Source of the DNA: Trypanosoma brucei
Taxonomy: Eukaryota
Direction of reading: 5' to 3'
Assembly (NCBI GenBank): GCA_000002445.1
Contig: CP000066.1
Span: 608,001 to 672,000, forward strand
Length of the DNA: 64,000 nucleotides
In this document: positions 27,419 to 44,521 of the stretch, in pieces
Layout: every line of letters starts with the position of its first letter
How positions within the stretch are numbered: position 1 is the first letter of the stretch
Made by a program: the position numbers and the translations under genes
Notes under the pieces: generated by a model
The model's input: only the letters and a program-made list of their open reading frames with translations
What the model was told of the DNA's origin: nothing
The model's database searches: none

Positions 27419-28393
27419 TCAGATGGTAAAATTAGTACTCTTCATATTATCAATGTTATTCGTGCTGAACTGCAGCGAAGTGAAATTCCTATGGATATCG
27501 TTGAAGTAGCTCTGCAGTAAAGTGATATTGGCCATCATATCCAGGAGTTCAGGAGGTGCTTTGCCAGAAGTAAAAGGTTCGATAAGAGGGTCAAATATCT
27601 CCTCCACGTAAATTTGGAGCTGAAAAAAAGCGGGGCCGTTCTCACGCCAGTTTATTAAGCCAGTTGAATTCTTCACCGCACCACCCTTATATAAGTTGTC
27701 ACGCGGTAAGTTCAAGCATTTGCTCACAGATCCAGATCCAGTTAAAACATCAATTTGAAGGCAACCTCCCCTGTATTTTTGGAGAGTGATCTCGTTCACA
27801 CCGGTTAATAAAGGACATGTCTGATCAACACATACGACTGGGAACCCCCTGACACCTTTCAGCGCTCCTTTCTTGCACTCGGGTCCTTCATCATTGCTCA
27901 CGGCTTTAACGTCATCCCACACAGTTCTTGCGATCTCAGCAATAGCTGTGTAATATTTATTTGATGTTATGAGGGCACCAGGTATTGCATTCCTCACTGC
28001 CCTCACGCTTTCATTAACCTCAGCAAATAATCCACCTGCCTTAGCAACAAGATCTCCCATTGCATTTCCATAAGATATAAGGTTTTCCAATTTATCATTT
28101 TCCTCTACCATTACACTGCTAATAACACTCAAATATATAACACTTTCGCCTGTTTTCCCTTCCATGTCATCCAGCATACGAGACGCATTTGCGTATACCT
28201 CCTCATTCAAAAAAAGCTTCCTCTCGCCATCTGTATATAGTTTGTTTAAGGCATCTGAAAGACATTTGAGGTAACATACGGATTGGTTTAAGTTTGTGCC
28301 CTTGTCATCATCTATTGATGTGCAATAACTTTCTTCTGCCACTCCAAAGGTCACAAAAAAAAAAACAACCAATCCTACAATCTTAATTTTCAT
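27419..28393 (-). CDS. ESAG/VSG-related secreted glycoprotein lacking C-terminal anchor signal
   Basis: Start moved to ATG 28393 (MKIKIVGLVVFFFVTFGVA signal peptide). An alternative ATG at 28579 is also possible. Cys-containing N-terminal region (SYCTSIDDD, VCYLKCL). At least 8 NxS/T sequons. Ends in a hydrophilic NMKSTNFTI with no GPI/TM tail. Confidence 0.45.
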   Translation of the reverse strand: MKIKIVGLVVFFFVTFGVAEESYCTSIDDDKGTNLNQSVCYLKCLSDALNKLYTDGERKLFLNEEVYANASRMLDDMEGKTGESVIYLSVISSVMVEENDKLENLISYGNAMGDLVAKAGGLFAEVNESVRAVRNAIPGALITSNKYYTAIAEIARTVWDDVKAVSNDEGPECKKGALKGVRGFPVVCVDQTCPLLTGVNEITLQKYRGGCLQIDVLTGSGSVSKCLNLPRDNLYKGGAVKNSTGLINWRENGPAFFQLQIYVEEIFDPLIEPFTSGKAPPELLDMMANITLLQSYFNDIHRNFTSLQFSTNNIDNMKSTNFTI

Positions 28394-29732
28394 TACTAAA
28401 CAATTACATTTGACAAGAGGAATGAAAAAAACACATACACATCGCCACACAAAACCAATGAGTGTCACAAATGTATAATCCCAATACCCACAGTGTTTCA
28501 TACACATAACATTGAACCACATAATAAATATTGCTACAAGAGACGTTAAACCCAACAGAATATGATGCTCCTTCTTCATTGTCAATCCTCCTTCATCCGT
28601 CACATCGTCATCATCCTCACTTCCATTGCATTTCCTCCCACTCTCCTTGAAATATTTACACACAATCAGGTTTTGAGATAGCAACTCTTTCAGTTTATTT
28701 TCATGCCCAGTAAAGGAAACAAAGATCAGCTCTACATCACCGTACCGTTTGGTGATACTCCCATATCATTTTGTGACTAAATTGTAGCTGTTGATAAGCT
28801 AGGGCACTATATCACTGAACATTAGGGTGACAACACCATCCCTATGGTAGTTAACGAAACCTCCGGTAGTTCCCACTATGAAAGTTCCAACTCCTGCAAC
28901 CGCAGCACCTTACGTACCCATGATCCAGCAATTGATGGTTGCTATCGGTTGTAAATTCAATTGGTTGATTAGCTGTGTAATTATTTGTGCAACCAATATA
29001 CCATCATTTGGCATATCTTCAGTGAAAGAGAAATTACACATGTTAGGAGATTCCGCTACTCTGTGCTTATGTTAATTACTTTAACATTCATTTCCTGAAG
29101 AGGCGGCTTTCTCCTTCACAAGACAACAACCATTTGCTTTAGCATTTGTTTGTCTAAAAACCATTACCAGATCCTTCAACACTTGTCCAATTGACAATGA
29201 TGCATTCACAACATGATTAGACACTCTTATTTCGTTTAAATAACTTGCGTCTATTACCTGTCCAGGTTCATCTGTATTCTTCATTATATTCCTCAACCTC
29301 TACGTTATCGCTTTCCATGCCCTTCCCTTTACATCATAGTGATATCACCACATCAGAAACCCATTCAACATTTACATAGCCTCCGATTGTCATCTTCAAA
29401 ACACTAACACTCACAGTCCCCAAGGCACAACTGAAGCTAAATACCGTTTGTGTCCCTTGACGGACACCTCAACTCAGTGCCAGGGTCTAGCACCCTGCTC
29501 AGGTAAGAGAAAAAAAGCGACAGCATCCTACTCCATTAGGATTAAGTTCAGACGGAAAATCCAAGGCTTCAATTCACAATGGAGCACACACCGTAAACGT
29601 TACAGGACAAGCATTATTCTTGGAAATAAAATAGGCACAGTTGCTGTGCCGTCAACTATACCAAAAAGAAATCCACTATTATTACCATTAGTGTTAGTAT
29701 TGGCGCAGTGGAGCCACATATGATGTTGTGTG

Positions 29733-30845
29733 TCACAGCAGAAAGAGCAAAAACACCACCAACGGTGAAATAGCCTGAGCGACATTTTTCGGCCGAAGTG
29801 GCTGGTGTGAGGGTTGGAGTGAGTGATTGGTTCTTGTTTCACCAAGAGGAACCAAGTCAGGGTCGGTGGTGCTTTGTGTAGCTGCACTTGTGTTGGGTGC
29901 CATTGGTGTATTGCCATCAGTTGCCGTTGAGGGAGATTGCTTGGGACGTTGCTCGGGAGATGGATCCTCCTCTGGTTGTACCTTTATTTCCGGGGGTGAC
30001 TGACGGGGTGGTGAGCCTCTTGTTGGAATAGGCGGTTCCCTCTGCTCCTGCGGTGGCATTTTGTTGACTTTTTGTGCATTTTCCTTTTTAGGGGTTTTCA
30101 ACCTTTTGACAAGGTCTTCTAGTTGTGTCAACCACTCAATTTTGACTTGATTTGCTCCTCCGCCTTCCATTTTATAGAAAACACATGGGGCGTTATTTGC
30201 ACTGCCAGACCCTCCACAAGATTTGGTGATCGGCTCCCGCCCGTGTCCGAAGCGCTTAGTTTCCCTCTCTGTTGTTTTCTCGGTCATTTCATTCAGTTTT
30301 TTCCTAAGATTTTGGACGGTTGTGGTTAATGATTCAAAACCGATGCTTTCTATATTAATTTGCTCGGTGCACTTTTGCTTGATTTTCCCCCAACTTTCTT
30401 CGGCTCTGTCCTTGTTTCCCCAACTTTCGGCAGGATCATACCACGCATTGGCTTCGTAGCACAGATTTTTTTGGTGGTCACCGTTTCCGCTGGGTCTGCA
30501 AAGACACAGAAGGTCCAGCGCTAACGCTTTGCCTCCAAATCCGCCTCCGAATATGCTGGTGTAGCCACAGTCAGCTTCTCGTTTTTCTTTTCCAGTCCAA
30601 TTAAGGGAGCCATCGCTGTCACTACCGTACAAGACTTTCATCGCGGAACTGTCGAAGTCGTTTGCGACCTCGGCTGTGAGTCTCTCTTTCTCCACCCACT
30701 CGTGTATTCTCAGTGTCAAATTTAAGAAACTGCAGAGCACGTCAAACTCCCTTTGGTTCAACGTATTTTCTATCTCTGCGGCCGGCACGCTCAACCCTGC
30801 CGCCTTCCAAACCACGCACAGCATAGTCACTAATATTTTCCACAT
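29733..30845 (-). CDS. VSG-family surface glycoprotein with Pro/Ser/Thr-rich stalk and GPI signal
   Basis: Start moved to ATG 30845 (MWKILVTMLCVVWKAAGLS signal peptide). ALALDLLCLC motif, paralogous to gene 23198-24385. C-terminal 100 aa Pro/Gln/Ser/Thr-rich. Hydrophobic tail AISPLVVFLLFLL. Confidence 0.55.
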   Translation of the reverse strand: MWKILVTMLCVVWKAAGLSVPAAEIENTLNQREFDVLCSFLNLTLRIHEWVEKERLTAEVANDFDSSAMKVLYGSDSDGSLNWTGKEKREADCGYTSIFGGGFGGKALALDLLCLCRPSGNGDHQKNLCYEANAWYDPAESWGNKDRAEESWGKIKQKCTEQINIESIGFESLTTTVQNLRKKLNEMTEKTTERETKRFGHGREPITKSCGGSGSANNAPCVFYKMEGGGANQVKIEWLTQLEDLVKRLKTPKKENAQKVNKMPPQEQREPPIPTRGSPPRQSPPEIKVQPEEDPSPEQRPKQSPSTATDGNTPMAPNTSAATQSTTDPDLVPLGETRTNHSLQPSHQPLRPKNVAQAISPLVVFLLFLL

Positions 30846-31156
30846 CGCCTTCCTAAGCATCAATAAAAAAAATGAAACAGATAGTAGAGAAATCTCCAAT
30901 GAGAGGGGCAGGGACACTTTTAAAGGGTGAAAGTTTAACCCTATTAGGTATTTCATGAAACATCAGCAGAGGTCAACCAGAGAAGATATGAAAGCTCATA
31001 TCTCCATAGACTACATTTATTTTTTTAAAAGTCTCTTTACCATCCCAAGACTAGTTTGGCACTTAAGTTTACTTCTGGTTTTGATACTTGCTGCCATTGT
31101 CTTAACCTATCTGCCTTAAAGTTTTGATAACATCAAGGGTTTCCGCTCTTTTTTGG

Positions 31157-31389
31157 GGGCCTCCATCTTCAAATGCATCATTTCTGATCCTTCCGTCACA
31201 TTGTTTGCGGGAGCACTTTACCCTTCCTAACTTTCCCTAGTGAGATGTGGCTGCAGGAGAGCTTTTTCATATGTGGAAATAAAACCACGCGGCTATCCGC
31301 ATATTTGACCCCATATCACGCCGTTATGTTTTTACGAAGAATACCCACCCTTGTGCCATTAAAGCAATAACGTTTTTTTTGTAAAAATG
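31157..31389. repeat. inverted repeat, right arm (IR-R), about 233 bp
   Basis: Reverse complement of IR-L (22153-22389). Arms are separated by 8767 bp. Confidence 0.85.
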
Positions 31390-32906
31390 CGATTAATTAT
31401 TAACATGACTATTGAAAACGCTATTGTGATGTTGAACATGGTTTACCGTTTCAATTCAATTATTTCACCACAACAATAGCCAAATAATACACGATCTACC
31501 AAACAAACGCAACAGAAAGGCATTCACCAACTTCAGAAAAAAAATTTATTCAAACGGTTTTCAAACAGTACATATCCTACCATTCCCACCCAAAACACCT
31601 CAGAAACTGTTGATTTTCAAGGTAAATCACAAATCGAAACATAAGCAGCAAACTACCCCACCCATACAAATACACGAGAATAAATGTGGTATAACAATAC
31701 CAGATAAGCTCGGTGACCGTATCCTACACCAAAATAGGTATTAATAACAATGTGAGGCTTGGGCACAAAATATGAAGGGCCATTGATTCCGCCTTTTTTC
31801 TTAGGGCAGAGGAGTTCTGTTCCCTTTCATTGGTGATGAGGCTATTATTATCACCCCAAAACCAGTTTTTTTTATCACTGCCTCTCCATGTGGATATTTT
31901 CCTTGTCTGGCGACCCGGCACTCACTTTTTTCTGCTTTTCTTAGGTGATGTTAATTGATTGCCTTACAGCCTATACCATTTATCTATTCACGAACGTTAC
32001 TGTTGGGAGGCGGTTATACGGAGACAATGTCAACGTGCCAAATTCGAGTACGCAGAGATCCACCACATGCCAAAGGTAAAACTATGCGCCATGCTACAAC
32101 AATGCATCGAGCTTCAAAACACTTCTCCACTACAAAAATCTCCCCCCAGTTCTGACGCTATGTTTTATTGAGCACAATTTCGTAGATGAGGGCGAGCCCT
32201 GGACGTTTATCGCCCACCATCCCACTACCTTATGTAACGTGACGGACAGCAACCGAACAAAAGGGTCGTATCCTTTCGTTTTCTACACATATCACTTTGA
32301 ATCCGAGAAGGAGTTCAACAGATGACAAACATAATGCAGTACGTACTAAAACAAAAAACACTTTTTACTTGAATCCCTATATCAACTCACAATCGACAGC
32401 ACATATTCGACATTAACTAACTCCATCATTAAAATACACTCCACTCTAACACAGAAACAACCCAATGTGATGCTTAGTTACCATAACAAAGGAATACGCC
32501 TCACGTTTCACAAACATGGGTACGAAGTCATTCCACCCTAGTACACACATTTGGTCACCTCACATTAATAACCTGTTTCTTAAACGCGTAAGGCGTTGTT
32601 TAAATTTCACGTTGTCATATAATATAATATTCCATACATAATTCTGCCTGCAGAGTCCACACCATATCGACAGCTGCCTTCATTTTGTTTCAGTGCAAAC
32701 GCCTAAACCCCTTCTAAAGGAGTCTGGCGTAGTATAAAGATATACAATGCTACAAATACCAGAGCAGCTAGATTGAAACACAGGTGGTGAGGAACTATCG
32801 GCATCTGGGGATGAATGACTTCATTCAAATGGGCATGCACGAATGCAGCACCTTTGAAGGGACAAAAACTCGTTTTAGAAAGAAAACTGACAAATAATTT
32901 GTACTC

Positions 32907-33563
32907 TCAGAGAAATAGGAGCAACACTGGAAAAAAAACCTGGTAGATAGGTGGTTGCAGCGGCTGAGATTTGCTTTTCTGCTGTTCCGGGGGGCGAACA
33001 GAGGAAGTTCCGTTACGTTCGCTGCCAAAAGTGGAGGAGACAGTACCTTTATTTTCGGATTTGAGGTGGCCGTCATCCTTAGAGGGTGAACCATTTTCCT
33101 CCTTTTTAGGGGTCGCAGAAACCGAACTACCATTTCTCACCGGCTCTTCAGAAAGCACAGGGCCGTACTCGGATGATGGAGGTGCCTCACCTTTGTTAGA
33201 GGCCTCGTCGCGACTTGAGTCTCCACCCGCTTCCACAACTGGTGAAGCGACTTCGGGTGTTGAGAGCCCAAGGAACTCACTAACCTTTGCGGTTACACAT
33301 CTGTGCGGTGAAAAGCAGGTCAATCCCCCGCCGCAAACGGTACAGTTCCCCTCTGCAGGTGCGCCCGAAGGAACCCTGTGTGCCAGGGTGCAGTTTTTCT
33401 GTGCATACGTCATGAGACGATTCTCCTCGTTTCTAGTTATACGGCTTTCAATTCCCAATACTTCCGTGCACTTACCCACATATCCAATTCTTCCCTCCCA
33501 TACATTCTCACACATGGCCACACGTTGAACGAAACCGAACAGTATTATTGGTAGGCACAGCAT
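32907..33563 (-). CDS. array copy 1: small Cys-rich / Ser-rich putatively GPI-anchored surface protein (218 aa)
   Basis: Signal peptide MLCLPIILFGFVQRVAMC. Seven Cys in the first 85 aa (NCTVCGGGLTCFSPHRC). Ser/Pro/Glu-rich low-complexity middle. Hydrophobic C-terminus VFFPVLLLFL. Confidence 0.55.
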   Translation of the reverse strand: MLCLPIILFGFVQRVAMCENVWEGRIGYVGKCTEVLGIESRITRNEENRLMTYAQKNCTLAHRVPSGAPAEGNCTVCGGGLTCFSPHRCVTAKVSEFLGLSTPEVASPVVEAGGDSSRDEASNKGEAPPSSEYGPVLSEEPVRNGSSVSATPKKEENGSPSKDDGHLKSENKGTVSSTFGSERNGTSSVRPPEQQKSKSQPLQPPIYQVFFPVLLLFL

Positions 33564-34420
33564 TTCAGAATTCTACACTGCCTGAGTTGCTCCAACACCA
33601 GCGCAAAGAAAAATAATAAACACCTCATACATAACATATATCATACAGTTATGTGTGTTTATACTTTGTTTCAAAATATATCGTATTGAATACAAATAGC
33701 AGACACATGACACGAAAAAATCCCATTAAGCGTTAACATGACATAAAATACCCTATTCAGATGCAACCGAACAAAAGGGTCGTATCCTTTCATTTTCTAC
33801 GCATATCACTTTTGATCCAAGATACGGTTAAACAGGTGACAAACATAATGCAGTACGTACTAAAACAAAAAACACTTTTTACTTGAATCCCTATATCAAC
33901 TCACAATCGACAACACATATTCGACATTAACTAACTCCATCATTAAAATACACTCCACTCTAACACAGAAACAACCCAATGTGATGCTTAGTTACCATAA
34001 CAAAGGAATACGCCTCACGTTTCACAAACATGGGTACGAAGTCATTCCACCCTAGTACACACATTTGGTCACCTCACATTAATAACCTGTTTCTTAAACG
34101 CGTAAGGCGTTGTTTAAATTTCACGTTGTCATATAATATAATATTCCATACATAATTCTGCCTGCAGAGTCCACACCATATCGACAGCTGCCTTCATCTT
34201 ACTTCCAAACAAACGCCTAAAACTCTTCTAAAGGAGTCTGGCGTAGCATAAAGATATACAATGACGCAAACACCAAAGAAGCTAGATTGAAACACAGGTG
34301 GGGAGGAACTATCGGCATCTGGGGATGAATGACTTCATTCAAATGGGCATGCACGAATGCAGCACCTTTGAAGGGACAAAAACTCGTTTTAGAAAGAAAA
34401 CTGACAAATAATTTGTACTC

Positions 34421-35077
34421 TCAGAGAAATAGGAGCAACACTGAGGAAAACACCTGGTAGATAGGTGGTTGCAGCGGCTGAGATTTGCTTGTCTGCTGTT
34501 CCGGGGGGCGAACAGAGGAAGTTCCGTTACGTTCGCTGCCAAAAGTGGAGGAGACAGTACCTTTATTTTCGGATTTGAGGTGGCCGTCATCCTTAGAGGG
34601 TGAACCATTTTCCTCCTTTTTAGGGGTCGCAGAAACCGAACTACCATTTCTCACCGGCTCTTCAGAAAGCACAGGGCCGTACTCGGATGATGGAGGTGCC
34701 TCACCTTTGTTAGAGGCATCGTCGCGACTTGAGTCTCCACCCGCTTCCACAACTGGTGAAGCGACTTCGGGTGTTGAGAGCCCAAGGAACTCACTAACCT
34801 TTGCGGTTACACATCTGTGCGGTGAAAAGCAGGTCAATCCCCCGCCGCAAACGGTACAGTTCCCCTCTGCAGGTGCGCCCGAAGGAACCCTGTGTGCCAG
34901 GGTGCAGTTTTTCTGTGCATACGTCATGAGACGATTCTCCTCGTTTCTAGTTATACGGCTTTCAATTCCCAATACTTCCGTGCACTTACCCACATATCCA
35001 ATTCTTCCCTCCCATACATTCTCACACATGGCCACACGTTGAACGAAACCGAACAGTATTATTGGTAGGCACAGCAT
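34421..35077 (-). CDS. array copy 2 (218 aa)
   Basis: Same architecture. Differs from copy 1 at a few residues (RDDASN, QQTSKS, VFSSVLLLFL). Confidence 0.55.
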   Translation of the reverse strand: MLCLPIILFGFVQRVAMCENVWEGRIGYVGKCTEVLGIESRITRNEENRLMTYAQKNCTLAHRVPSGAPAEGNCTVCGGGLTCFSPHRCVTAKVSEFLGLSTPEVASPVVEAGGDSSRDDASNKGEAPPSSEYGPVLSEEPVRNGSSVSATPKKEENGSPSKDDGHLKSENKGTVSSTFGSERNGTSSVRPPEQQTSKSQPLQPPIYQVFSSVLLLFL

Positions 35078-35934
35078 TTCAGAATTCTACACTGCCTGAG
35101 TTGCTCCAACACCAGCGCAAAGAAAAATAATAAACACCTCATACATAACATATATCATACAGTTATGTGTGTTTATACTTTGTTTCAAAATATATCGTAT
35201 TGAATACAAATAGCAGACACATGACACGAAAAAATCCCATTAAGCGTTAACATGACATAAAATACCCTATTCAGATGCAACCGAACAAAAGGGTCGTATC
35301 CTTTCATTTTCTACGCATATCACTTTTGATCCAAGATACGGTTAAACAGGTGACAAACATAATGCAGTACGTACTAAAACAAAAAACACTTTTTACTTGA
35401 ATCCCTATATCAACTCACAATCGACAACACATATTCGACATTAACTAACTCCATCATTAAAATACACTCCACTCTAACACAGAAACAACCCAATGTGATG
35501 CTTAGTTACCATAACAAAGGAATACGCCTCACGTTTCACAAACATGGGTACGAAGTCATTCCACCCTAGTACACACATTTGGTCACCTCACATTAATAAC
35601 CTGTTTCTTAAACGCGTAAGGCGTTGTTTAAATTTCACGTTGTCATATAATATAATATTCCATACATAATTCTGCCTGCAGAGTCCACACCATATCGACA
35701 GCTGCCTTCATCTTACTTCCAAACAAACGCCTAAAACTCTTCTAAAGGAGTCTGGCGTAGCATAAAGATATACAATGACGCAAACACCAAAGAAGCTAGA
35801 TTGAAACACAGGTGGGGAGGAACTATCGGCATCTGGGGATGAATGACTTCATTCAAATGGGCATGCACGAATGCAGCACCTTTGAAGGGACAAAAACTCG
35901 TTTTAGAAAGAAAACTGACAAATAATTTGTACTC

Positions 35935-36591
35935 TCAGAGAAATAGGAGCAACACTGAGGAAAACACCTGGTAGATAGGTGGTTGCAGCGGCTGAGATTT
36001 GCTTGTCTGCTGTTCCGGGGGGCGAACAGAGGAAGTTCCGTTACGTTCGCTGCCAAAAGTGGAGGAGACAGTACCTTTATTTTCGGATTTGAGGTGGCCG
36101 TCATCCTTAGAGGGTGAACCATTTTCCTCCTTTTTAGGGGTCGCAGAAACCGAACTACCATTTCTCACCGGCTCTTCAGAAAGCACAGGGCCGTACTCGG
36201 ATGATGGAGGTGCCTCACCTTTGTTAGAGGCATCGTCGCGACTTGAGTCTCCACCCGCTTCCACAACTGGTGAAGCGACTTCGGGTGTTGAGAGCCCAAG
36301 GAACTCACTAACCTTTGCGGTTACACATCTGTGCGGTGAAAAGCAGGTCAATCCCCCGCCACAAACGGTACAGTTCCCCTCTGCAGGTGCGCCCGAAGGA
36401 ACCCTGTGTGCCAGGGTGCAGTTTTTCTGTGCATACGTCATGAGACGATTCTCCTCGTTTCTAGTTATACGGCTTTCAATTCCCAATACTTCCGTGCACT
36501 TACCCACATATCCAATTCTTCCCTCCCATACATTCTCACACATGGCCACACGTTGAACGAAACCGAACAGTATTATTGGTAGGCACAGCAT
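35935..36591 (-). CDS. array copy 3 (218 aa, protein identical to copy 2)
   Basis: Identical translation to copy 2. Confidence 0.55.
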   Translation of the reverse strand: MLCLPIILFGFVQRVAMCENVWEGRIGYVGKCTEVLGIESRITRNEENRLMTYAQKNCTLAHRVPSGAPAEGNCTVCGGGLTCFSPHRCVTAKVSEFLGLSTPEVASPVVEAGGDSSRDDASNKGEAPPSSEYGPVLSEEPVRNGSSVSATPKKEENGSPSKDDGHLKSENKGTVSSTFGSERNGTSSVRPPEQQTSKSQPLQPPIYQVFSSVLLLFL

Positions 36592-37448
36592 TTCAGAATT
36601 CTACACTGCCTGAGTTGCTCCAACACCAGCGCAAAGAAAAATAATAAACACCTCATACATAACATATATCATACAGTTATGTGTGTTTATACTTTGTTTC
36701 AAAATATATCGTATTGAATACAAATAGCAGACACATGACACGAAAAAATCCCATTAAGCGTTAACATGACATAAAATACCCTATTCAGATGCAACCGAAC
36801 AAAAGGGTCGTATCCTTTCGTTTTCTACACATATCACTTTTGATCCAAGATACGGTTAAACAGGTGACAAACATAATGCAGTACGTACTAAAACAAAAAA
36901 CACTTTTTACTTGAATCCCTATATCAACTCACAATCGACAACACATATTCGACATTAACTAACTCCATCATTAAAATACACTCCACTCTAACACAGCAAC
37001 AACCCAATGTGATGCTTAGTTACCATAACAAAGGAATACGCCTCACGTTTCACAAACATGGGTACGAAGTCATTCCACCCTAGTACACACATTTGGTCAC
37101 CTCACATTAATAACCTGTTTCTTAAACGCGTAAGGCGTTGTTTAAATTTCACGTTGTCATATAATATAATATTCCATACATAATTCTGCCTGCAGAGTCC
37201 ACACCATATCGACAGCTGCCTTCATCTTACTTCCAAACAAACGCCTAAAACTCTTCTAAAGGAGTCTGGCGTAGCATAAAGATATACAATGACGCAAACA
37301 CCAAAGAAGCTAGATTGAAACACAGGTGGGGAGGAACTATCGGCATCTGGGGATGAATGACTTCATTCAAATGGGCATGCACGAATGCAGCACCTTTGAA
37401 GGGACAAAAACTCGTTTTAGAAAGAAAACTGACAAATAATTTGTACTC

Positions 37449-38123
37449 TCAGAGAAATAGGAGCAACACTGGAAAAAAAACCTGGTAGATAGGTGGTTGC
37501 AGCGGCTGAGATTTGCTTTTCTGCTGTTCCGGGGGGCGAACAGAGGAAGTTCCGTTACGTTCGCTGCCAAAAGTGGAGGAGACAGTACCTTTATTTTCGG
37601 ATTTGAGGTGGCCGTCATCCTTAGAGGGTGAACCATTTTCCTCCTTTTTAGGGGTCGCAGAAACCGAACTACCATTTCTCACCGGCTCTTCAGAAAGCAC
37701 AGGGCCGTACTCGGATGATGGAGGTGCCTCACCTTTGTTAGAGGCCTCGTCGCGACTTGAGTCTCCACCCGCTTCCACAACTGGTGAAGCGACTGCGGGT
37801 GTTGGGAGCCCAAGGAACTCACTAACCTTTGCAGTGACACATCTATAATTGAAAGGACAACGCAAGGTTCCCCCGCCACAAACGGTACAGTTCCCGTCAG
37901 TGGTTGCGCCAGATGGTACGCTTCGGATGGGAGTGCAGTTCGCTTCCGCATACTTCACGAGACGATTCTCTTCTGCTACGCCCGCTGGAGCCTTAATTTT
38001 CAGCAAATCCGTACACATATCCACAACTCCAACTCGCGTTCCCCATCCCTTCCCATAAGTAGCAACAATTTGAACCAATCCCGCGAACAGGGTTAATACA
38101 CAGACACACACAGGTCTCGTCAT
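37449..38123 (-). CDS. array copy 4: paralog with divergent N-terminal Cys domain, conserved stalk and tail (about 224 aa)
   Basis: Start moved to ATG 38123 (MTRPVCVCVLTLFAGLVQIVA signal peptide). Conserved NCTVCGGG..RC..RCVTAKVSEFLGL core. The C-terminal 120 aa match copy 1 variants (RDEASN, QQKSKS, VFFPVLLLFL). Confidence 0.5.
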   Translation of the reverse strand: MTRPVCVCVLTLFAGLVQIVATYGKGWGTRVGVVDMCTDLLKIKAPAGVAEENRLVKYAEANCTPIRSVPSGATTDGNCTVCGGGTLRCPFNYRCVTAKVSEFLGLPTPAVASPVVEAGGDSSRDEASNKGEAPPSSEYGPVLSEEPVRNGSSVSATPKKEENGSPSKDDGHLKSENKGTVSSTFGSERNGTSSVRPPEQQKSKSQPLQPPIYQVFFPVLLLFL

Positions 38124-39031
38124 TAATCTTTTACTAACATAACAATAAAAGCAAAAAAACTTCTTTGCAGAGCAATTAACTCGCTTTCTCTCATGTTTAA
38201 ACATTGTCAAGTTACCTTTTGTTTAATATACAGAGCCAGTTAACCACTCAGAAAACAACCAGTGAGTATAATCAGCGTCCACAATACTTATCCGTATGGG
38301 AAGAAATGAAATATGAAGTTACGTCTTTTAAAATCTTTATCAAAAGCAGCAGCCAAGCGACCGGAGACTCACATTTATCAAGTGCGAGTAGGGGGCATCT
38401 GTGGTTCAATAACATAAAAACACATGCAGTAACAAGTTTTCGCAGATAAATATTATGGAGTACCACCTATATAAGTCCAAGTCCACACAAAAAAAACCCA
38501 AGCAAAAGCAAATACACAGTAAAGAAATAATTACAAACACATTTGATAGCACCGTCTGTTGATAGCAAATACTTAAACAGCGAAGAAGAAAGACGTTCAA
38601 AGCATTACAAAACACATCGTGGAGCAGTTCTGTAGAAACGATTACAAATGGGAAATAACCAACTCCCACGAAACAGTACATCACTGTAGCCAGTCCATCA
38701 AGAAAAATTGGCAGCGTCTCGGCGCGTGATTCAACTCTTTTCGAACGCTAGACAGCATCCACAACACTAAGCAGTTAGGTACAAATATAGATCACTACAT
38801 AGCAAAAGCAAAATGCGGTAAGTACCGCAAAGGGGTCCCCCATCCTTACGCTGTTCTATTATTTATTTCGCTTCTTCCACTTTATTGCAGTCTACAATTA
38901 TAGGCGCTTTCTCCCATCATATATTAAAGCATAATAGCGCGAGAAAGAACAAAAGGTCATAGATTAACGTATCGAGCTAGTGTGAGGGGTGATGCTCTGA
39001 GGCAGTATTTGTATCTAGTTTAGTGACGGAT

Positions 39032-39949
39032 TTATCCGGTGATAAAGCATACAATTGCGACAAGGAGGTTCTGTATCGCTCCATATCTCACGTTGTTTCC
39101 TTTTTTGTTTTCTGGTTTGCGGTCGATTCTTCCTGTGTTTGATACAATTCCTGCACCTGCTGCAACTGTATCATCCCGTCCGCGCACTGGTTCCTCCCTT
39201 CCTGGGTCTGCATCCTGTTTCCCATTGGTCGTCGTGCCATCTTCTGCAGCATCGCGCTGGTGATCATTCACTGTACCTTTTTCTGGTGAAGATTCCCCTC
39301 GAGGGTGAGTATGCTTCCCTCCCTGAGTTGCTCCTCCCTTTTCTGGTTCCTTTCGGGTCAAGCCCTCACCTCCAGCTCCGTCCTTTTTCCCCGAAGCTCC
39401 CCGCTTCTCCCCAGCAGTTCCCCGCTTTTCCCCCGGACTTTGCTGATCTTCCTTTGGAGTTTCCTCACCTTCCCCCGAAGCTTCCTGCTCCTCCCCCTCA
39501 CTTTTGGGAGCACTGCTCGCTGTCTCTTCGTCGTCCGAACCGCTACCCTTAGTTGTGTCTGAGGGTCCCTGTTCAGACGCGGCAGACTGCTCTACCGTCT
39601 CTTCTGTAGGGACCTGTTGTGTTATACTCCGCCAGTCGGAGTCGGAGCATGTTGTGGCATTGAGTGAATCCTCGCTTGAGTCCTCGTCCGTGCAATTAAG
39701 GGTGTGCAGCCGGTGGCCGTTTCCATGAAAAATGGCGTACACTTTGAGCTTCAGCTTGAAATATCCCTGTGGTTGTCCCTTTCCGATCAGAAGCACAGGA
39801 GTGTTTGTGCAGTTGGCAGGGTGCCACTTGCCCTTCCATCTGCACAGCGCCCCTTCCGCTTCATTATGCAGACAGTCACACCTGAAAGTCACTGCTGAAG
39901 ATCCCAAAACTACACAACTTGCTAGAAACAACGCTGTAAATGTCAACAT
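39032..39949 (-). CDS. acidic Ser/Glu/Gly-rich secreted or membrane-anchored protein with N-terminal Cys-containing domain
   Basis: ATG confirmed at 39949. Signal peptide MLTFTALFLASCVVLGSSA. Cys motif FRCDCLHNEAEGALCRW...NCTNT...LNCTDED. Long acidic low-complexity region with imperfect GEKRG(T/A)(A/S)G repeats. Hydrophobic C-terminus LLVAIVCFITG. Confidence 0.5.
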   Translation of the reverse strand: MLTFTALFLASCVVLGSSAVTFRCDCLHNEAEGALCRWKGKWHPANCTNTPVLLIGKGQPQGYFKLKLKVYAIFHGNGHRLHTLNCTDEDSSEDSLNATTCSDSDWRSITQQVPTEETVEQSAASEQGPSDTTKGSGSDDEETASSAPKSEGEEQEASGEGEETPKEDQQSPGEKRGTAGEKRGASGKKDGAGGEGLTRKEPEKGGATQGGKHTHPRGESSPEKGTVNDHQRDAAEDGTTTNGKQDADPGREEPVRGRDDTVAAGAGIVSNTGRIDRKPENKKGNNVRYGAIQNLLVAIVCFITG

Positions 39950-42900
39950 AGAGTGTTAGCTGCCTGTCCTCTACTTGTAAAAATCACTGAAAAAGGGATG
40001 TACTCGGTAAACACAGGGTCCACACAAACGCAAACACACGTTCCTAACAGCTTTCAATTGCACTTACACTCCCCGTTACTCCAGCAGGTTCCACTGGTCG
40101 TCAAATTTAGCAGTAAATTTATTCCTCACGAAGATAAGCTATCACCAATCCACTAATAGGCAATCGGTCACCCTTCTGGTCGACTTCTGTAGACTTACTA
40201 CCCCATAATTAGTTGAAGTTTTTGGGTAAGGCTACCTGCGCCTGAAGTTTTAGAGACCCCGGGAATTTCTAAGTGCATGCGCGAGTTGCATTGCAGCCAC
40301 ACAACCATATATGCCCCGGCGTGCCTGTAAAAAAGACAAACACGTAGTTACTTAACAAGCAGATGTGCTCGCGCACGAATGTCTCCCAGTAAAAACACAC
40401 ACAAAGGTATAACGTGAAACAACAATTCCAAGCTAACTTAGCGGATATGTATTAAGACAAAATAATTAAAGCAGTCATGGTGGAAAGAACTTGAAATATG
40501 GAACTTAAGGGAACACCGTTTCCCCCTTTTTTCTTAAAGATAAACGGTCTGACTTTCCTATTTATCTTCGTTACCGGTTACGTCATTGTCACTCTGAAGC
40601 TTTGTTTCGATTCTGCTTCCCGCTACAACGCCGGCTGTAGCAATAAACCGGCCTCCTCTTAGGCATGCTTGAGCGCTTTTCATTCCCGCTTTTGTTATTC
40701 GCCAAGAAGTGGCTTGACAGGTGTTGGAGTTTCTTTGATCCACCTCAAACGCGGGGTTTCCTTTTTTTTATTCCCTCCAAAAATACGAAGGGGCAACTCG
40801 CCTAGCGGTGATTCCACCCACAAAAGAGAAAGCACACACAACGTAAGTTAGCGTGATGAATAGGGTGTACAAAGTTAATTATACCCTTTTTCCACCTTAC
40901 GTTGCAAAGGTCAGGCATGTCAGTTAGTTAATATATTTTTCACCACCGTCGGAAAGTAATTAAGTACCACTTTAGGCAATCTTTCCCTCTATGTCCGGGG
41001 ATCAATACGACCTTTCACATCTCTCCTCGTCAACACCTTCCCCCTACTGCGCTTTAGTGAGAACAGCACCAACTCAGGTGAATCAACGAAGTAAATACCA
41101 ACAACTATTGGGGACTTGGAAATGTACCTACCTCCGTGAGCGTTACCGATCCTTCAAATCACTGGGTGTTTTTTTTTAAAAAGAGCGGCTGGAACCCATG
41201 GCCCCTCATGTCACCACAAAGCCGAATCTCAGTACTTGTGCGCCCTCATTCACACGTTTAGTTGTTATCATATTAACAGGTTCCAATAAGATGGTACCTT
41301 TCGCGTTACTCTAGGCCCGAAATCGGTTGTGGAATCATTCAGGACCTACCGCCACCGGTGGGATACCTTTCCCGACTCCAAACTTCAGGTTGCAAACTCT
41401 CCGTACCTGCAGAAAGTAGCAGCGCCCCGATAGAAAGTTAGGTTCCATCACCTCTTATCTTTAAATTTGTTTTTATTCACATGCGACGGAGTTTAACTGA
41501 CGAGGCACCAACCCATTCCTTTGTAACTTCAGGGATGATGCCGCTTTCGGCCGCCCTCTACACGACAACCTCTAATTATCCAGAGTAGCACCAATAACAT
41601 ATGCTGTTACCATTTAAAAGAGCATTCAGCATGGATGACTTCCCCCCGATGTCACTAATAATTGAGTAACGCGGTTCCGGAAGTGTTGTGTTACAACTTA
41701 TTCTCTTAGGATGGAACAAACTCCTTCGTGGTAGCACACCTTAGCGGCATCGTGAGATATTCACCACAGCACCAAGTGGGGGAGATTGATTTAGGCGCAT
41801 GAAGTATGGATGTCACTGTGCGGGTTGTACTGTTCAAAAGAGTGGGTTGTCGGCAAAAGGTGTTACAAGCCACACGATGTTACACGAGTAGACGGAAATC
41901 TAATGAGGTGCGTTCAGCTGTTGTGCGCACGTTCGGACAAGAATACGCCAAAGTGAGGCAATAATGTGCACGTGAAGACGGCACTAACGCGTAGATCGTT
42001 TGCCACTTGTATATCATATTTCCCCAGGAGTCCAGCCCAAAGTATTCGTACCGGCTGAAGGCGCACATTAATGAATTTCAACGGATGCATCAACCACAGA
42101 ACTTAGAGAAGGGCTCCGCTACCACTGGTAAATACTAAAGGAGACATTGCCCCTCTCCCAAAGACATAAAACCGTTGCCGAAGGCGCCTCAGAGAATTGC
42201 GATTATAGAGGGAGTAAGCCGGCATGCAACACGTTGGCACTCGCGCGGCTCTCGCAAAGAGTATTTACATTTTATGTGCAATGCAAACTCCTCTCCGTGC
42301 GGATACGCCTTTCACCGTCGACACCATTGGCACTGAGACTTTAGCAGTAATTGTAGAAATGTATAAGCCCCCGTATGTTGCACTTTTATTTATTGACAAT
42401 GTGATACTTCACGCAATCCCGTGCCTGCCCTCCCCATCGTTTTGTTCATTCCGTTTTTAAGCCATAACTGCGGGGCTGTGGTGACAAGGTTCAAAGCGAC
42501 CACCAATAGGAGAGGAAAGATATATACATACATATATATCATCAGGCTTCTTTTGGCCCGAATGCGCCAAGAAACTATTGAGTGTTTCCCCTCGCGTGGC
42601 AAAACCACTTCATGGGGCGATAAACTCCCGAGCTCACTCACGGGCAAAACATTCCAGTAGGAACTTGTAAAATGTGGAATGGAGGAGGAATGACTAGCAA
42701 CCGAGCGGGAAGTTTTTGGCACACTGCTTATTCCCAGCACCATGACCGCTACCGATGGCATTGGACTCACCTTGTTCTTTTACCCCAAAGAACTTTAGCA
42801 GGTACCGTACTGCTTTTATGTTTTAACACAACCGTCGTTCCCCCTATAAACTCCGTTTACCTTCACTCCTTCCGCAGGGAAGCGCAAACGAGCAAATAAC

Positions 42901-44521
42901 CCCCGGTATTTGAGCTTTGCAGATCCCTCTTACGCATATATCTTGCGATGTTGACAACTGCAGCCCGACGACGATAGCGGTTAATTGCTAGTGACACTGG
43001 CTGATTTGGTACTTTATATATATATATAAAGGAAGTTAAACGTCACCGTCTTGCCCTCCGTAACCAGATGATGATGGAGATTAACTCACTGTCAAGCAGG
43101 TTAGATGCGCAACGCAATGCGGGACTCCTCAGTTTAAAAAAAAAAAAAAGCATCTTAGTCTACCACTGAACCCGCGGCAACTTGTTCTGACAAAAACTGA
43201 CCGTGGTGTGTTTCCCGCCATTTATTAGGGGAAAATGTCACGCGAAACCAAAGTAAAGAGGGCAGAAATAACTACTCACCAACCTCTGACCTGCTGAAAA
43301 ATGGTGAGGGACAGAGAATGTAGTTGGATTACTCAGCCAGGGATAACTTGTATTTGTGCTCGCGTCATGTGTTTCAGACTAGAGGTGTCATTTGCACAGA
43401 TAGATTCACATCATTGTTCCAACAGAAAGAGTAAATAAGGGGTGACGAATGATAGGGTGCGAAGGAAGGAATAAATAACTCAGAACCAAACGAAGTATAA
43501 GTTTCGTCAAGACATTTCGTACGACAAGAGTGAAACGTTATAGTCATCAGTGGCTTCATTTGTGGTAGCGGTGGTGCCGATCACTTGTGAGCCCGCCGGT
43601 AGGATGAAGGGTCTTCCACTGAACAATAACATGGCGGCGCGCTTTTCCACACCCAACTTTGTTAGGTCACACACACACGAAACAAATCCAACTGAATGTT
43701 CCATTGCTAAGGGTACAGTAGCAAAATGGGAGGAAATAAGTGCATAATCTGCTGAAGCGCACTACCAGTCCCTGGAATGAAGGTGATTACAGATAACTAA
43801 CTTCAACATACTCGAGCATTCTTTCAGCCATTCGAGCGGCCAATAAGGGAACCGTTGCACTTCCTTCCTTTCCTCCTCCTTCCCCCTATAAATATCGCAC
43901 TGGTAGCGCCCACGGGGATGCCTCACCGTCCCTAGGCGCTGCGGCGTCCCATGAACAATATCATGAACGGTTAAACAAAAACAGAAGTAAAAAAGTGAAC
44001 TTTTTGAATACTGGTGGAGGAAGAGGAAATAACAAGTATTTATGCACGACACAAAAATGATATTGGTACAAGGTTGAAAGCAAAGTGCTTTGGAGACCCA
44101 TCGTTGGGGCGAGGAATTTCTCACCACTCCCATTCAATGTGCACGAATAAACTCCCGCCTGCTCCACACCTTTGTACGCTCATTATCTCGTTCACCTTCT
44201 CTCACATCATCATCATTCCTTTATCATCTCCCTTCATTTATGCTTGCACGACAGCAGAGGTGTCATCCCGCAGAGACACACATACACATACACACACGCA
44301 CACGTATACAAATATCATCTTCAGCATGCGACGGCCAACACAGTTCAGTGGGAGTGAGGAAGACGCTAATCACATTCCCTCCATTTATTCCCCCTTGTCT
44401 TTCTCCCTCAGTTTCCCCTTGCGTATTTCCCTCGTCTACTCTCGTCGCTCCCCAACTTCCATGACTAGTCAATAAAAATAGATAAAATTAAAACAAAAAC
44501 AAAAACAAGACCGACAAACCC

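What the first reader, a model, noticed from the sequence alone, without database searches (positions are those of the whole stretch)
32245..38210. Perfect 1514-bp tandem array of small Cys-rich/Ser-rich putative GPI-anchored proteins with a mosaic copy pattern
The period is exactly 1514 bp, measured at three successive landmarks. Each unit encodes a 218-aa protein with a signal peptide, a 7-Cys N-domain (NCTVCGGGLTCFSPHRC), a Ser/Pro/Glu-rich stalk and a hydrophobic tail. Copies 2 and 3 are identical. Copy 1 and the terminal copy 4 share the alternative residues (RDEASN, QQKSKS, FFPVLLLFL; RFFFQ in the overlapping frame). Copy 4 has a completely different N-terminal Cys domain while keeping the CVTAKVSEFLGL core. 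This pattern suggests gene conversion or unequal crossing-over homogenising internal units. The true copy number may also be higher, because near-identical arrays tend to collapse in assemblies. I do not recognise the family. It is not EP/GPEET procyclin, and not obviously BARP or ISG.
Basis: seen in the sequence. Interest (0 to 1): 0.65.

Follow-up and report, generated by a model that had tools for sequence, protein, structure and literature searches.

The report
Known trypanosome stumpy-stage surface-gene array
This is a real four-gene tandem array in Trypanosoma brucei chromosome 3 (Tb927.3.2550-2580) that encodes small secreted, cysteine-knotted, probably GPI-anchored glycoproteins; the array, its mosaic copies and its family ("Fam5") are already published, and only the proteins' function is still unknown.

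Summary
Four head-to-tail units with a period of exactly 1514 bp start at window 32249. Each carries a minus-strand gene for a signal peptide, a six-Cys head, a Ser/Pro/Glu/Gly stalk and a hydrophobic C-terminal tail.

The window is T. brucei TREU927 chromosome 3, 608001-672000. The genes are Tb927.3.2550, .2560, .2570 and .2580. This is "array 13" of Jackson 2007/2010, where recombination mosaics were already shown. Rico et al. 2017 list all four genes as cell-surface phylome Family 5.

Published data show mRNA enriched in bloodstream forms, peaking in stumpy forms, and de-repressed about 3-fold on REG9.1 knock-down.

My analyses add four points:
- The head is under purifying selection (dN/dS 0.36 at dS about 1).
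- The stalk and 3'UTR evolve in concert within each genome.
- The coding region is the most diverged part of the locus between subspecies.
- The only relatives among 1.8 billion representative proteins are two other T. brucei chromosome 3 genes.

The head has no Pfam, PDB or fold match.

Copy 4's head is diverged (58% identity, all six Cys kept), not "completely different". Its annotated N-terminal extension is probably spurious.

Verdict: already known as an object, function unknown, low interest.

The parts
32249..38123 (-). Whole tandem array: 3 full 1514-bp units plus a fourth unit whose 5' (head-coding) end is diverged. Equals T. brucei TREU927 chr3 640249-646123.
   Evidence: Coordinate offset of 608000 from the Rico 2017 S2 table and the Jensen 2009 table.
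32907..33563 (-). Copy 1 CDS, Tb927.3.2550, 218 aa plus TGA. Head identical to copies 2 and 3; stalk and tail identical to copy 4; its own 3'UTR variant.
34421..35077 (-). Copy 2 CDS, Tb927.3.2560, 218 aa plus TGA.
35935..36591 (-). Copy 3 CDS, Tb927.3.2570, 218 aa plus TGA. Protein identical to copy 2; one synonymous difference at 36361.
37449..38123 (-). Copy 4 CDS, Tb927.3.2580, as I read it: 224 aa starting MTRPVCV. Public annotation extends to 38204 (251 aa); the bacterial-code ORF extends to 38210.
   Evidence: The T. equiperdum orthologues are annotated from the MTRP start.
34763..35023 (-). Head domain of copy 2 (residues 19-105). Six invariant Cys, YAxxNCT and GNCTVC motifs, two N-glycosylation sequons. 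Equivalent segments sit at -1514 and +1514; in copy 4 at 37794-38054.
34487..34762 (-). Stalk of copy 2 (about residues 106-197). Low complexity: S 21, E 11, P 10, G 10 per 100 residues. Three N-glycosylation sequons. AF2 predicts no structure. Ends in the family-conserved EQQxSxS motif, with Ser197 as the inferred GPI omega site.
   Evidence: omega site is inference
34424..34486 (-). C-terminal 21 residues of copy 2 (KSQPLQPPIYQVFSSVLLLFL). Polar spacer plus a 10-13 residue hydrophobic end with no cytoplasmic tail, read as a GPI-addition signal (inferred).
   Evidence: mean hydropathy 2.8-3.0 for the last 10 residues. Fam5 scored GPI-positive in Jackson 2013 Table S1.
35104..35134 (-). Putative polypyrimidine tract and first AG trans-splice acceptor upstream of copy 2 (ATG at 35077, implied 5'UTR about 26 nt). 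The same element sits upstream of copy 1 (33590-33620) and copy 3 (36618-36648).
   Evidence: Read directly from the sequence; inferred, not mapped
38134..38160 (-). Putative polypyrimidine tract and AG acceptor of copy 4, lying inside the annotated N-terminal extension.
   Evidence: inferred
35078..35934 (-). 857-nt intergenic spacer between copies 3 and 2, one of three. It holds the 3'UTR and polyadenylation region of the upstream gene and the splice signals of the next. The 3'UTR is the likely target of REG9.1-dependent repression (inferred by analogy with ESAG9).
   Evidence: Rico 2017

Best explanation
The feature is the tandem array Tb927.3.2550-.2580 of Trypanosoma brucei TREU927 chromosome 3. 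It has four paralogous genes of cell-surface phylome family 5 (Fam5), a family found only in the T. brucei group.

The array lies near the 3' end of a minus-strand polycistronic unit, within a T. brucei-specific island of ESAG1-like and VSG-related genes beside a convergent strand-switch region.

How it most likely works:
1. Shown by published data: the genes are transcribed, and their mRNAs are low in procyclic forms, higher in bloodstream forms and highest in stumpy (transmission) forms. They are repressed by REG9.1 together with ESAG9 and Fam7.
2. Inferred from sequence: each mRNA is matured by trans-splicing at its own polypyrimidine/AG signal and polyadenylated in the 857-nt spacer. Stage control acts through the 3'UTR.
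3. Inferred from sequence: the product enters the ER through a cleaved signal peptide. It forms three disulfides in a head of about 85 residues, is N-glycosylated at up to five conserved sequons, and receives a GPI anchor at or near Ser197. The head therefore sits on a disordered stalk of about 90 residues at the stumpy-form surface or flagellar pocket, or is shed.
4. Shown here and published: unequal crossing-over and gene conversion keep the stalk, tail and 3'UTR nearly identical within a genome. Meanwhile two head types (copies 1-3 versus copy 4) persist and are patch-wise reshuffled between strains.
5. Inferred: the array multiplies gene dosage in an organism that lacks gene-specific promoters.

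The biochemical role of the head is unknown. My best guess is a ligand-binding or host/vector-interacting module used around transmission.
For: Identity:
- Exact protein matches to TREU927 chr3 entries AAZ10289-92.
- Coordinates and gene IDs, with the label 'Family 5', in Rico 2017 S2. Positions in the Jensen 2009 table agree.
- Catalogued as array 13.

Coding:
- Head of copy 2 versus copy 4: dS 1.00, dN 0.36, omega 0.36.
- Six Cys, two NCT sequons and the C-terminal EQQxSxS motif are invariant even in paralogues only 22-29% identical, Tb927.3.600 and Tb927.3.5670.

Expression:
- Array signal for cBF, SL-BF, ST-BF, PF-log, PF-stat: 4653, 7070, 9998, 2689, 642 for .2550-.2570; 1430, 1908, 3114, 473, 414 for .2580.
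- log2FC 1.50-1.69 on REG9.1 RNAi, adjusted P 0.015-0.019.
- Northern blots show stumpy enrichment.

Secretory and GPI architecture:
- Hydrophobic N- and C-termini and five sequons.
- Fam5 scored SP-positive and GPI-positive.
- Two other Fam5 members are in the bloodstream surface-labelled proteome.

Concerted evolution and mosaic:
- 0/339 versus 110/318 differences in adjacent segments of copies 1 and 4.
- stalk dS 0-0.02 within a genome versus 0.12-0.15 between subspecies.
- Array conserved with 4 and 3 genes in two other assemblies.

Context: Pfam ESAG1 and VSG_B neighbours, and the strand switch.
Against: - No protein-level evidence for these four genes. They were absent from the supplementary tables of the Gadelha 2015 surface proteome that I could search. 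Rico et al. state that Fam5 was not detected in stumpy-form proteomes.
- GPI anchoring is only predicted. Rico et al. describe the tail as a transmembrane helix.
- Splice and polyadenylation sites were read from sequence, not mapped.
- The Tb927.3.2550-.2570 microarray probe set cannot separate the three copies.
- The structure model of the head is only moderately confident (pLDDT 66.6), and the full-length model is poor (pLDDT 40.5).
- Copy number in TREU927 was not verified by read depth.
Confidence: 0.8

Rival explanations
1. The ORFs are fortuitous frames in a non-coding 1.5-kb satellite.
For: No Pfam or PDB match. Other long ORFs occur in alternative frames of the same unit: 102 aa on the same strand and 185 aa antisense. 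No peptide evidence was found for these four genes.
Against: Purifying selection in this frame across a divergence of dS about 1 (omega 0.36). The Cys scaffold and motifs are invariant in paralogues 22-29% identical at two other loci. The mRNAs are regulated. Signal peptide and C-terminal signal are in the right places.
Confidence: 0.01
2. The array is an assembly duplication artefact, or conversely a collapsed version of a much longer array.
For: Units 2 and 3 differ by a single base. In the short-read T. equiperdum OVI assembly a family member sits alone on a 1175-bp contig, which suggests the array was not resolved there. Read depth could not be examined.
Against: Units 1 and 4 are distinct from units 2 and 3 at 35 or more sites and in the head. 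Collinear arrays with period 1519 occur in T. b. gambiense DAL972 (4 genes) and T. b. equiperdum IVM-t1 (3 genes). Jackson 2010 lists 4 and 4 annotated copies.
Confidence: 0.07
3. The proteins are not GPI-anchored surface molecules. They are released (secreted or shed) factors, like some ESAG9 proteins, acting on the host or on the tsetse midgut.
For: Co-regulated with ESAG9 by REG9.1. Not detected in cell-associated stumpy proteomes, and Rico et al. themselves suggest release. The hydrophobic tail is short, at 10-13 residues.
Against: The C-terminal S-x-S plus spacer plus hydrophobic end is conserved family-wide, as expected of a GPI signal. Fam5 is scored GPI-positive. Fam5 members Tb927.3.600 and Tb927.10.5700 were recovered from surface-labelled cells. 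Release after GPI anchoring is also possible, so this rival overlaps the main explanation.
Confidence: 0.25
4. The array is a young, lineage-specific orphan family that is drifting with no important function. Its stumpy profile would be a by-product of sharing 3'UTR features with ESAG9-type genes.
For: Restricted to the T. brucei group. Copy number varies from 3 to 4. Stalk omega is about 0.4-1 in the few within-genome changes. No phenotype has been published.
Against: The head has been kept under purifying selection over dS about 1 with invariant Cys and sequons. Three separate loci are retained. The array is conserved in three subspecies.
Confidence: 0.12

Closest known systems
Cell-surface phylome Fam5 (Jackson et al. 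2013), exemplar Tb927.3.600; other members Tb927.3.5670, Tb927.10.5700 and Tb927.10.5710
   Same: The array genes are members. They are listed as Family 5 in Rico 2017 S2. They show full-length HMM matches to Tb927.3.600 (E 2e-10) and Tb927.3.5670 (E 7e-9). They share the same size, signal peptide, 6-Cys head, low-complexity stalk, EQQxSxS motif and hydrophobic tail.
   Different: The array copies are only 22-29% identical to the single-copy members. They are the REG9.1-responsive, stumpy-peaking subset, whereas Tb927.3.600 is unresponsive (log2FC -0.06) and peaks in slender forms. Tb927.10.5700 and .5710 were not retrieved by my sequence profiles.
ESAG9 (Fam2) and Fam7, the other REG9.1-repressed, stumpy-enriched, T. 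brucei-specific families
   Same: Same regulatory behaviour and species restriction. All are small secretory proteins, often near strand-switch or ESAG-rich regions.
   Different: No sequence relationship was detected; neither family appeared in the exhaustive profile search. Some ESAG9 members are released, but the fate of Fam5 is unknown.
Procyclins (EP/GPEET) and other mucin-like GPI-anchored coat proteins of kinetoplastids
   Same: Small size, signal peptide, extended low-complexity acidic/Pro-rich region, C-terminal GPI-type signal, tandemly arrayed genes with stage-specific 3'UTR control.
   Different: No EP or GPEET repeats. Fam5 has a folded disulfide-bonded head. It is expressed in bloodstream and stumpy forms rather than procyclic forms. 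No homology was found.
Other mosaic tandem arrays of T. brucei surface genes (ISG65 array Tb927.2.3270-3320, BARP, Fam1 Tb927.6.1310-1390)
   Same: Same evolutionary mechanics: concerted evolution, recombination mosaics and subspecies-specific isoforms. Fam1 also shares the position beside a strand-switch region.
   Different: Unrelated proteins. The neighbouring genes carry VSG_B and ESAG1 Pfam domains, but the array proteins carry none.

Membership tests
Cell-surface phylome Fam5 (T. brucei) | Listed as a member by the authors who use the classification | tested here: met
   Rico 2017 S2 Table labels Tb927.3.2550.2560.2570 and .2580 'Family 5'. Their chr3 coordinates equal window coordinates plus 608000.
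Cell-surface phylome Fam5 (T. brucei) | Sequence homology to the family exemplar Tb927.3.600 | tested here: met
   Profile of the array proteins hits Tb927.3.600 at E 2e-10 over positions 3-222, in a search of 1.84 billion representatives. The alignment shows 6 invariant Cys and shared motifs.
Cell-surface phylome Fam5 (T. brucei) | Restricted to T. brucei (absent from T. congolense, T. vivax and elsewhere) | tested here: met
   Only T. brucei brucei, gambiense and equiperdum proteins were found in 5.8 billion and 1.84 billion sequence databases.
Cell-surface phylome Fam5 (T. brucei) | Predicted signal peptide and GPI/C-terminal hydrophobic signal | tested here: inconclusive
   Hydropathy and motif inspection agree, as does the family-level SP y / GPI y call in Jackson 2013 Table S1. 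No dedicated SignalP or GPI predictor and no experiment were available.
Cell-surface phylome Fam5 (T. brucei) | Tandemly arrayed next to a strand-switch region; preferential bloodstream-form expression | tested here: met
   Four units. Plus-strand genes end at 21539 and minus-strand genes start at 23198. GC skew changes sign at about 24 kb. Published microarray values are 7-16 fold higher in bloodstream than in stationary procyclic forms.
VSG / VSG-related / ESAG2 (Pfam VSG_B PF13206) | Match to the VSG_B domain model | tested here: not met
   No Pfam hit for array proteins at E<=1, whereas three neighbouring genes hit VSG_B at 3e-27 to 7e-45.
Procyclin (EP/GPEET) | EP dipeptide or GPEET pentapeptide repeat region; procyclic-stage expression | tested here: not met
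   No such repeats in the translated sequence. Expression is lowest in procyclic forms.
ISG / BARP (Fam49, Fam50) | Sequence homology to ISG or BARP families | tested here: not met
   No Pfam family at all. No ISG or BARP protein was retrieved by profile searches of the full databases.
ESAG9 (Fam2) | Sequence homology to ESAG9 | tested here: not met
   Exhaustive profile searches returned no ESAG9 protein. Only the regulation is shared. No direct pairwise alignment with an ESAG9 sequence was run.

The most novel reading that the evidence does not exclude
The Fam5 head may be a previously undescribed disulfide-rich fold that acts as a strain-variable interaction module of stumpy forms. Three observations point this way:
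- The coding region is the most diverged part of the locus between T. b. brucei and T. b. gambiense: 87.5-88.3% identity, against 92-97% for the spacers and 99-100% for the flanks.
- Two old head types (dS about 1) are maintained side by side.
- The C83-C89 loop differs in almost every isolate.

Together these would fit balancing or diversifying selection by the host or the tsetse on a second, non-VSG tier of surface variation that affects transmission.
Probability: 0.12. Interest if true: 0.55.

Novelty: already known. Interest (0 to 1): 0.2.

Why it matters
As an object it adds nothing new. The array, its mosaic evolution, its family assignment and its regulation by REG9.1 are all in the literature.

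Its remaining value is as a pointer. Fam5 is one of three T. brucei-specific surface families switched on in the transmission stage, and none has a known function.

The analyses here sharpen what to test:
- A six-Cys head with no fold relatives.
- A probable omega site at Ser197.
- A likely mis-annotated start for Tb927.3.2580.
- A head-coding segment that is unusually diverged between subspecies, while the stalk is homogenised within genomes.

Tried and rejected
- Tandem Repeats Finder found nothing for the array because its period limit is 500. I used the repeat finder and a lag scan instead.
- AlphaFold2 on the full-length protein with the 8-sequence family alignment gave pLDDT 40.5, which is unusable.
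- Pfam and PDB sequence searches with single sequences and profiles were empty.
- I tested whether the neighbour Tb927.3.2590, which has a similar architecture, is related. There is no similarity, BLASTP E about 1.
- The supplements of Savage 2012 (GPI-protein survey) hold none of these IDs.
- The Gadelha 2015 surface-proteome tables hold Fam05 members Tb927.3.600 and Tb927.10.5700 but not the array genes, searched under both Tb927 and Tb427 IDs.
- A literature search on 'Fam5' alone was swamped by unrelated uses.
- TREU927 proteins are not indexed in the contig look-up, so no extra TREU927-like assemblies could be fetched.
- The ESAG9 3'UTR element paper (Monk 2013) is not in the library, so I could not test for a shared 3'UTR motif. 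Rico et al. report that no simple linear motif explains the regulation.
- No tRNA or Rfam family occurs anywhere in the window.

Full report

Yes. The repeat finder reports four copies beginning at 32249, 33763, 35277 and 36791, with start-to-start spacing of 1514, 1514 and 1514. A lag-1514 self-comparison gives 84-100% identity in every 50-nt bin from 32250 to about 36340. Outside that range it gives the random level of about 25%. Homology begins exactly at 32249. Tandem Repeats Finder missed the array only because its longest period is 500.

On the minus strand there are three 218-aa ORFs at 32907-33563, 34421-35077 and 35935-36591, and a longer ORF at 37449-38210.

The array is perfect in period but not in sequence:
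- Units 2 and 3 differ at one base, 34847 G versus 36361 A. This is a synonymous TGC/TGT change at Cys77.
- Unit 1 differs from units 2 and 3 at 35-36 positions.
- Unit 4 is in exact register up to about 37854. It then carries a 3-nt indel and a diverged head-coding segment.

**2. What organism and which genes?**

The neighbouring genes carry Pfam ESAG1 and VSG_B domains.

The array proteins are exact matches to T. brucei brucei TREU927 chromosome 3 entries AAZ10289-AAZ10292. The next gene is Tb927.3.2590.

Published tables give these positions:
- Tb927.3.2550 at Tb927_03:640907-641563
- Tb927.3.2560 at 642421-643077
- Tb927.3.2570 at 643935-644591
- Tb927.3.2580 at 645449-646204

All are on the reverse strand. 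These are the window coordinates plus 608000, so the window is chr3:608001-672000.

**3. Context**

Plus-strand housekeeping genes (Pex2/12-RING, VPS9, a kinase, Arv1, a PH-domain protein) run up to 21539. Minus-strand genes start at 23198. This is therefore a convergent strand-switch region, and the GC skew changes sign at about 24 kb.

Reading the minus-strand unit 5' to 3', the genes are:
- a 2047-aa protein
- a PGAP1-like hydrolase
- a DDX60-like helicase (Tb927.3.2600)
- Tb927.3.2590
- the array (.2580 to .2550)
- the VSG-related gene Tb927.3.2540 (VR8)
- an ESAG1-family gene
- two more VSG_B genes

After these comes the strand switch.

This matches the description by Jackson et al. 2013 of the T. 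brucei-specific families Fam4-7. [quoted passage not shown]

**4. It is already catalogued**

The array is "array 13, hypothetical protein Tb927.3.2550" in Jackson 2007 (PMC1855330), where Ds is 0.156 and Dn 0.086.

It also appears in the T. b. gambiense genome paper (PMC2854126). That paper lists four annotated copies in each subspecies, three shared isoforms and one unique isoform in each. The PHI recombination test gives p<0.001 and GARD finds four breakpoints.

Rico et al. 2017 (PMC5380359) label all four genes "Family 5" of the cell-surface phylome in their S2 table. The eight Fam5 members are these four plus Tb927.3.5670, Tb927.3.600, Tb927.10.5700 and Tb927.10.5710.

**5. Independent test of family membership**

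An HMM built from eight array-type proteins (alignment A1) was run against 1.84 billion representative proteins. Besides its own cluster it found only two proteins:
- Tb927.3.600 (E 2e-10, full length), which is the Fam5 exemplar in Jackson's Table S1
- Tb927.3.5670 (E 7e-9)

A second profile that included these two, searched against 5.8 billion sequences, added only a T. equiperdum orthologue of Tb927.3.5670.

The family as seen by sequence is therefore confined to the T. brucei group. It sits at three loci on chromosome 3.

The alignment shows these features are invariant across the family:
- six Cys (positions 32, 58, 74, 77, 83 and 89 of copy 2)
- a Y-A-x-x-N-C-T motif
- a G-N-C-T-[VL]-C motif
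- near the C-terminus, P-x-[ED]-Q-Q-x-S-x-S followed by a spacer and a hydrophobic end

Tb927.10.5700 and Tb927.10.5710 were not reached by my profiles.

**6. Are the ORFs really coding?**

Yes.
- Between the copy 1-3 head type and the copy 4 head type, dS is 1.00, dN 0.36 and omega 0.36. Between subspecies omega is 0.32-0.38.
- The Cys scaffold and sequons survive in paralogues that are 22-29% identical.
- The mRNAs are detected and regulated (section 7).

The alternative-frame ORFs (102 aa and 185 aa) are simply repeated because the unit is repeated.

**7. Expression (published data, looked up here)**

Jensen et al. 2009 (PMC2771046, Additional file 2) give microarray signals in the order cultured bloodstream, slender, stumpy, log procyclic, stationary procyclic:

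| Probe set | cBF | SL-BF | ST-BF | PF-log | PF-stat | Range | Peak |
|---|---|---|---|---|---|---|---|
| Tb927.3.2550/.2560/.2570 (shared) | 4653 | 7070 | 9998 | 2689 | 642 | 15.6-fold | stumpy |
| Tb927.3.2580 | 1430 | 1908 | 3114 | 473 | 414 | 7.5-fold | stumpy |

The neighbours Tb927.3.2540 and Tb927.3.2590 are also bloodstream-enriched.

Rico et al. found the four genes raised by log2FC 1.67, 1.50, 1.54 and 1.69 after REG9.1 RNAi, with adjusted P of 0.015-0.019. Northern blots showed Family 5 transcripts elevated in stumpy forms. The authors concluded that REG9.1 represses ESAG9, Family 5 and Family 7.

They also note that Fam5 proteins were not detected in stumpy-form proteomes and might be released.

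Two other Fam5 members, Tb927.3.600 and Tb927.10.5700, are in the surface-labelled bloodstream proteome of Gadelha et al. 2015. The array genes are not in the tables I could search.

A 2024 paper still cites Fam5 only as REG9.1-regulated. I found no functional study.

**8. Protein anatomy**

- **Residues 1-18:** a hydrophobic signal peptide. Cleavage after A-M-C18 is my inference. Copy 4 has Tyr at the position aligned with Cys18.
- **Residues 19-105:** the head, with six conserved Cys (presumably three disulfides) and two NCT sequons.
- **Residues 106-197:** a low-complexity stalk with S 21, E 11-12, P 10 and G 10 per 100 residues and three more sequons. AF2 predicts it as unstructured.
- **Last 21 residues (KSQPLQPPIYQVFSSVLLLFL):** a polar spacer and a hydrophobic end of 10-13 residues that stops at the C-terminus.

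A tail with no cytoplasmic extension, preceded by a family-conserved S-x-S, is what a GPI-addition signal looks like. I infer omega at Ser197. Jackson's table scores Fam5 as GPI-positive. No dedicated predictor or experiment was available, so this remains a prediction.

**9. Head structure**

The full-length AF2 model was useless, with pLDDT 40.5.

A head-only run with six diverse sequences gave pLDDT 66.6 and pTM 0.60. The predicted order of elements is helix, long helix, beta-hairpin, helix.

I therefore claim no fold assignment.

**10. Gene-model details**

Upstream of copies 1-3 there is a polypyrimidine tract and a first AG at 35105/4, using copy 2 coordinates. This is 26 nt before the ATG.

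For copy 4 a polypyrimidine tract (38160-38136) and AG (38135/4) lie inside the annotated 251-aa ORF, directly before the ATG at 38123. That ATG begins a normal signal peptide, MTRPVCVCVLTLFAGLVQIVA. The T. equiperdum orthologues are annotated from that Met.

I conclude, by inference, that Tb927.3.2580 is 224 aa and that the N-terminal extension is an annotation artefact. This also explains why the longer model scores as having a transmembrane segment in Jensen's table.

**11. Evolution of the array**

Segment-wise distances:

| Pair | Head | Stalk + tail | Proximal 3'UTR |
|---|---|---|---|
| Copy 1 vs copy 4 | 110/318 | 0/339 | 17/303 |
| Copy 2 vs copy 4 | 110/318 | 6/339 | 0/303 |
| Copy 1 vs copy 2 | 0/318 | 6/339 | 17/303 |

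So copy 4 consists of its own head, the copy-1 stalk and the copy-2/3 3'UTR. Copy 1 consists of the copy-2/3 head, the copy-4 stalk and its own 3'UTR. Adjacent segments with 0% and 35% divergence cannot share one history, so conversion or crossover tracts are required.

Two other assemblies were compared:
- T. b. gambiense DAL972 has three full units with period 1519 plus the divergent copy, giving four genes.
- T. b. equiperdum IVM-t1 has two full units plus the divergent copy, giving three genes.

Within each genome the stalks are nearly identical, with dS 0-0.02. Between T. b. brucei and T. b. gambiense the stalk dS is 0.12-0.15. This is classic concerted evolution.

The copy-4 head is orthologously conserved (dS 0.05). 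The copy 1-3 head differs strongly between subspecies (dS 0.34). In T. b. gambiense it carries the copy-4 version of the C77-C89 loop, GGGTLRCPFNYRC.

A sliding comparison of the collinear 20.7 kb gives these identities:
- 99-100% in the flanks
- 92-97% in the array spacers
- 87.5-88.3% in the bins holding the coding sequences

The coding sequence is therefore the most diverged part of the locus. Overall omega stays about 0.35, so I do not claim positive selection. The pattern does leave room for balancing or diversifying selection, or for repeated patch conversion.

**12. Copy number**

Read depth could not be examined. The distinct end units and the 3-4 genes in two independent assemblies argue against an artefactual duplication.

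A modest under-count of the nearly identical units 2 and 3 in TREU927 cannot be excluded. In the short-read T. equiperdum OVI assembly a family member sits alone on a 1175-bp contig, which suggests the array was not resolved there.

**13. Mechanism, with status of each step**

- **Shown (published data):** transcription, a bloodstream/stumpy-biased mRNA level, and repression by REG9.1.
- **Shown (here and published):** concerted evolution and recombination mosaics.
- **Inferred from sequence:** trans-splice sites, signal-peptide cleavage, three disulfides, N-glycosylation at five sequons, GPI addition near Ser197, and display of the head on a flexible stalk at the surface or flagellar pocket, or shedding.
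- **Inferred from general trypanosome biology:** the array serves gene dosage, because Pol II transcription is polycistronic and promoterless at the gene level (the rationale in Jackson 2007). Stage control acts through the 3'UTR.
- **Unknown:** the ligand or activity of the head. My best guess is a host- or vector-facing interaction module used around transmission, as Rico et al. proposed for the co-regulated families.

**14. Verdict**

However, the object is already known:
- a catalogued array (Jackson 2007, 2010)
- a named family (Fam5; Jackson 2013)
- a known regulator and stage profile (Jensen 2009, Rico 2017)

What remains open is protein-level expression, anchoring and function.

Interest is low (0.2). 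The most novel reading still allowed is a strain-variable, novel-fold interaction module under balancing or diversifying selection. I rate it at about 0.12 probability.

Noticed in passing
window 22156-22388 and 31159-31388: A 233-bp inverted repeat (93% complementary, arms about 8.8 kb apart). It brackets the block of two VSG_B genes, the ESAG1-family gene and the VSG-related gene Tb927.3.2540. One arm lies in the convergent strand-switch region and the other just before the array. It has no other copy in the window. It could mark an inversion or insertion of the ESAG/VR block.
   Followed up: partly
window 37449-38204 (Tb927.3.2580): The public 251-aa gene model probably starts too far upstream. 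A polypyrimidine tract and AG acceptor lie inside the N-terminal extension, and the ATG at 38123 begins a normal signal peptide. The T. equiperdum orthologues are annotated from that Met.
   Followed up: partly
window 39032-39949 (Tb927.3.2590): The adjacent gene has a similar layout: signal peptide, Cys-containing N-terminal part, long acidic Gly/Glu/Ser-rich region with a 21-nt imperfect tandem repeat at 39428-39477, and a hydrophobic C-terminus. It shows no detectable similarity to Fam5 (BLASTP E about 1). It is T. brucei-specific and bloodstream-enriched in the Jensen 2009 data.
   Followed up: partly
window 26000-39500 versus L002 (T. b. gambiense DAL972): Divergence between subspecies is confined to the T. 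brucei-specific island. Flanking housekeeping sequence is 99-100% identical and the array 87.5-97%. Around 26000-27000 (the second VSG_B gene) identity falls to 75-82% with many gaps, and the collinear alignment ends at 25988.
   Followed up: partly
L004 773-1444 and 3863-5335 (T. equiperdum OVI, orthologue of the Tb927.3.5670 locus): The distant Fam5 paralogue is also followed downstream by a VSG_B-domain gene. That gene is 24% identical to Tb927.3.2540, much as the Fam5 genes are 22-24% identical to each other. This suggests an old segmental duplication of a Fam5 plus VSG-related module.
   Followed up: partly
window 39950-44521: A stretch of about 4.5 kb between Tb927.3.2590 and the DDX60-like helicase has no ORF of 150 aa or more, no repeats, and no Rfam or tRNA hit. 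It is 98-99.8% identical to T. b. gambiense, where small ORFs of 112-123 aa are annotated. It is probably long UTRs or an unannotated transcript.
   Followed up: partly
window 21540-23197: Convergent strand-switch region between the plus-strand and minus-strand gene clusters. GC skew changes sign nearby, at about 24 kb. No tRNA genes or Rfam families were detected there, although such regions in T. brucei often hold tRNA genes.
   Followed up: yes
L003 (T. equiperdum OVI contig CZPT02000830.1, 1175 bp): A family member with a further head variant (GGGLRCWGEHRC loop, copy-4-like signal peptide) sits alone on a 1175-bp contig. This suggests that short-read assemblies do not resolve this array, and it shows that more head isoforms exist among strains.
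   Followed up: no
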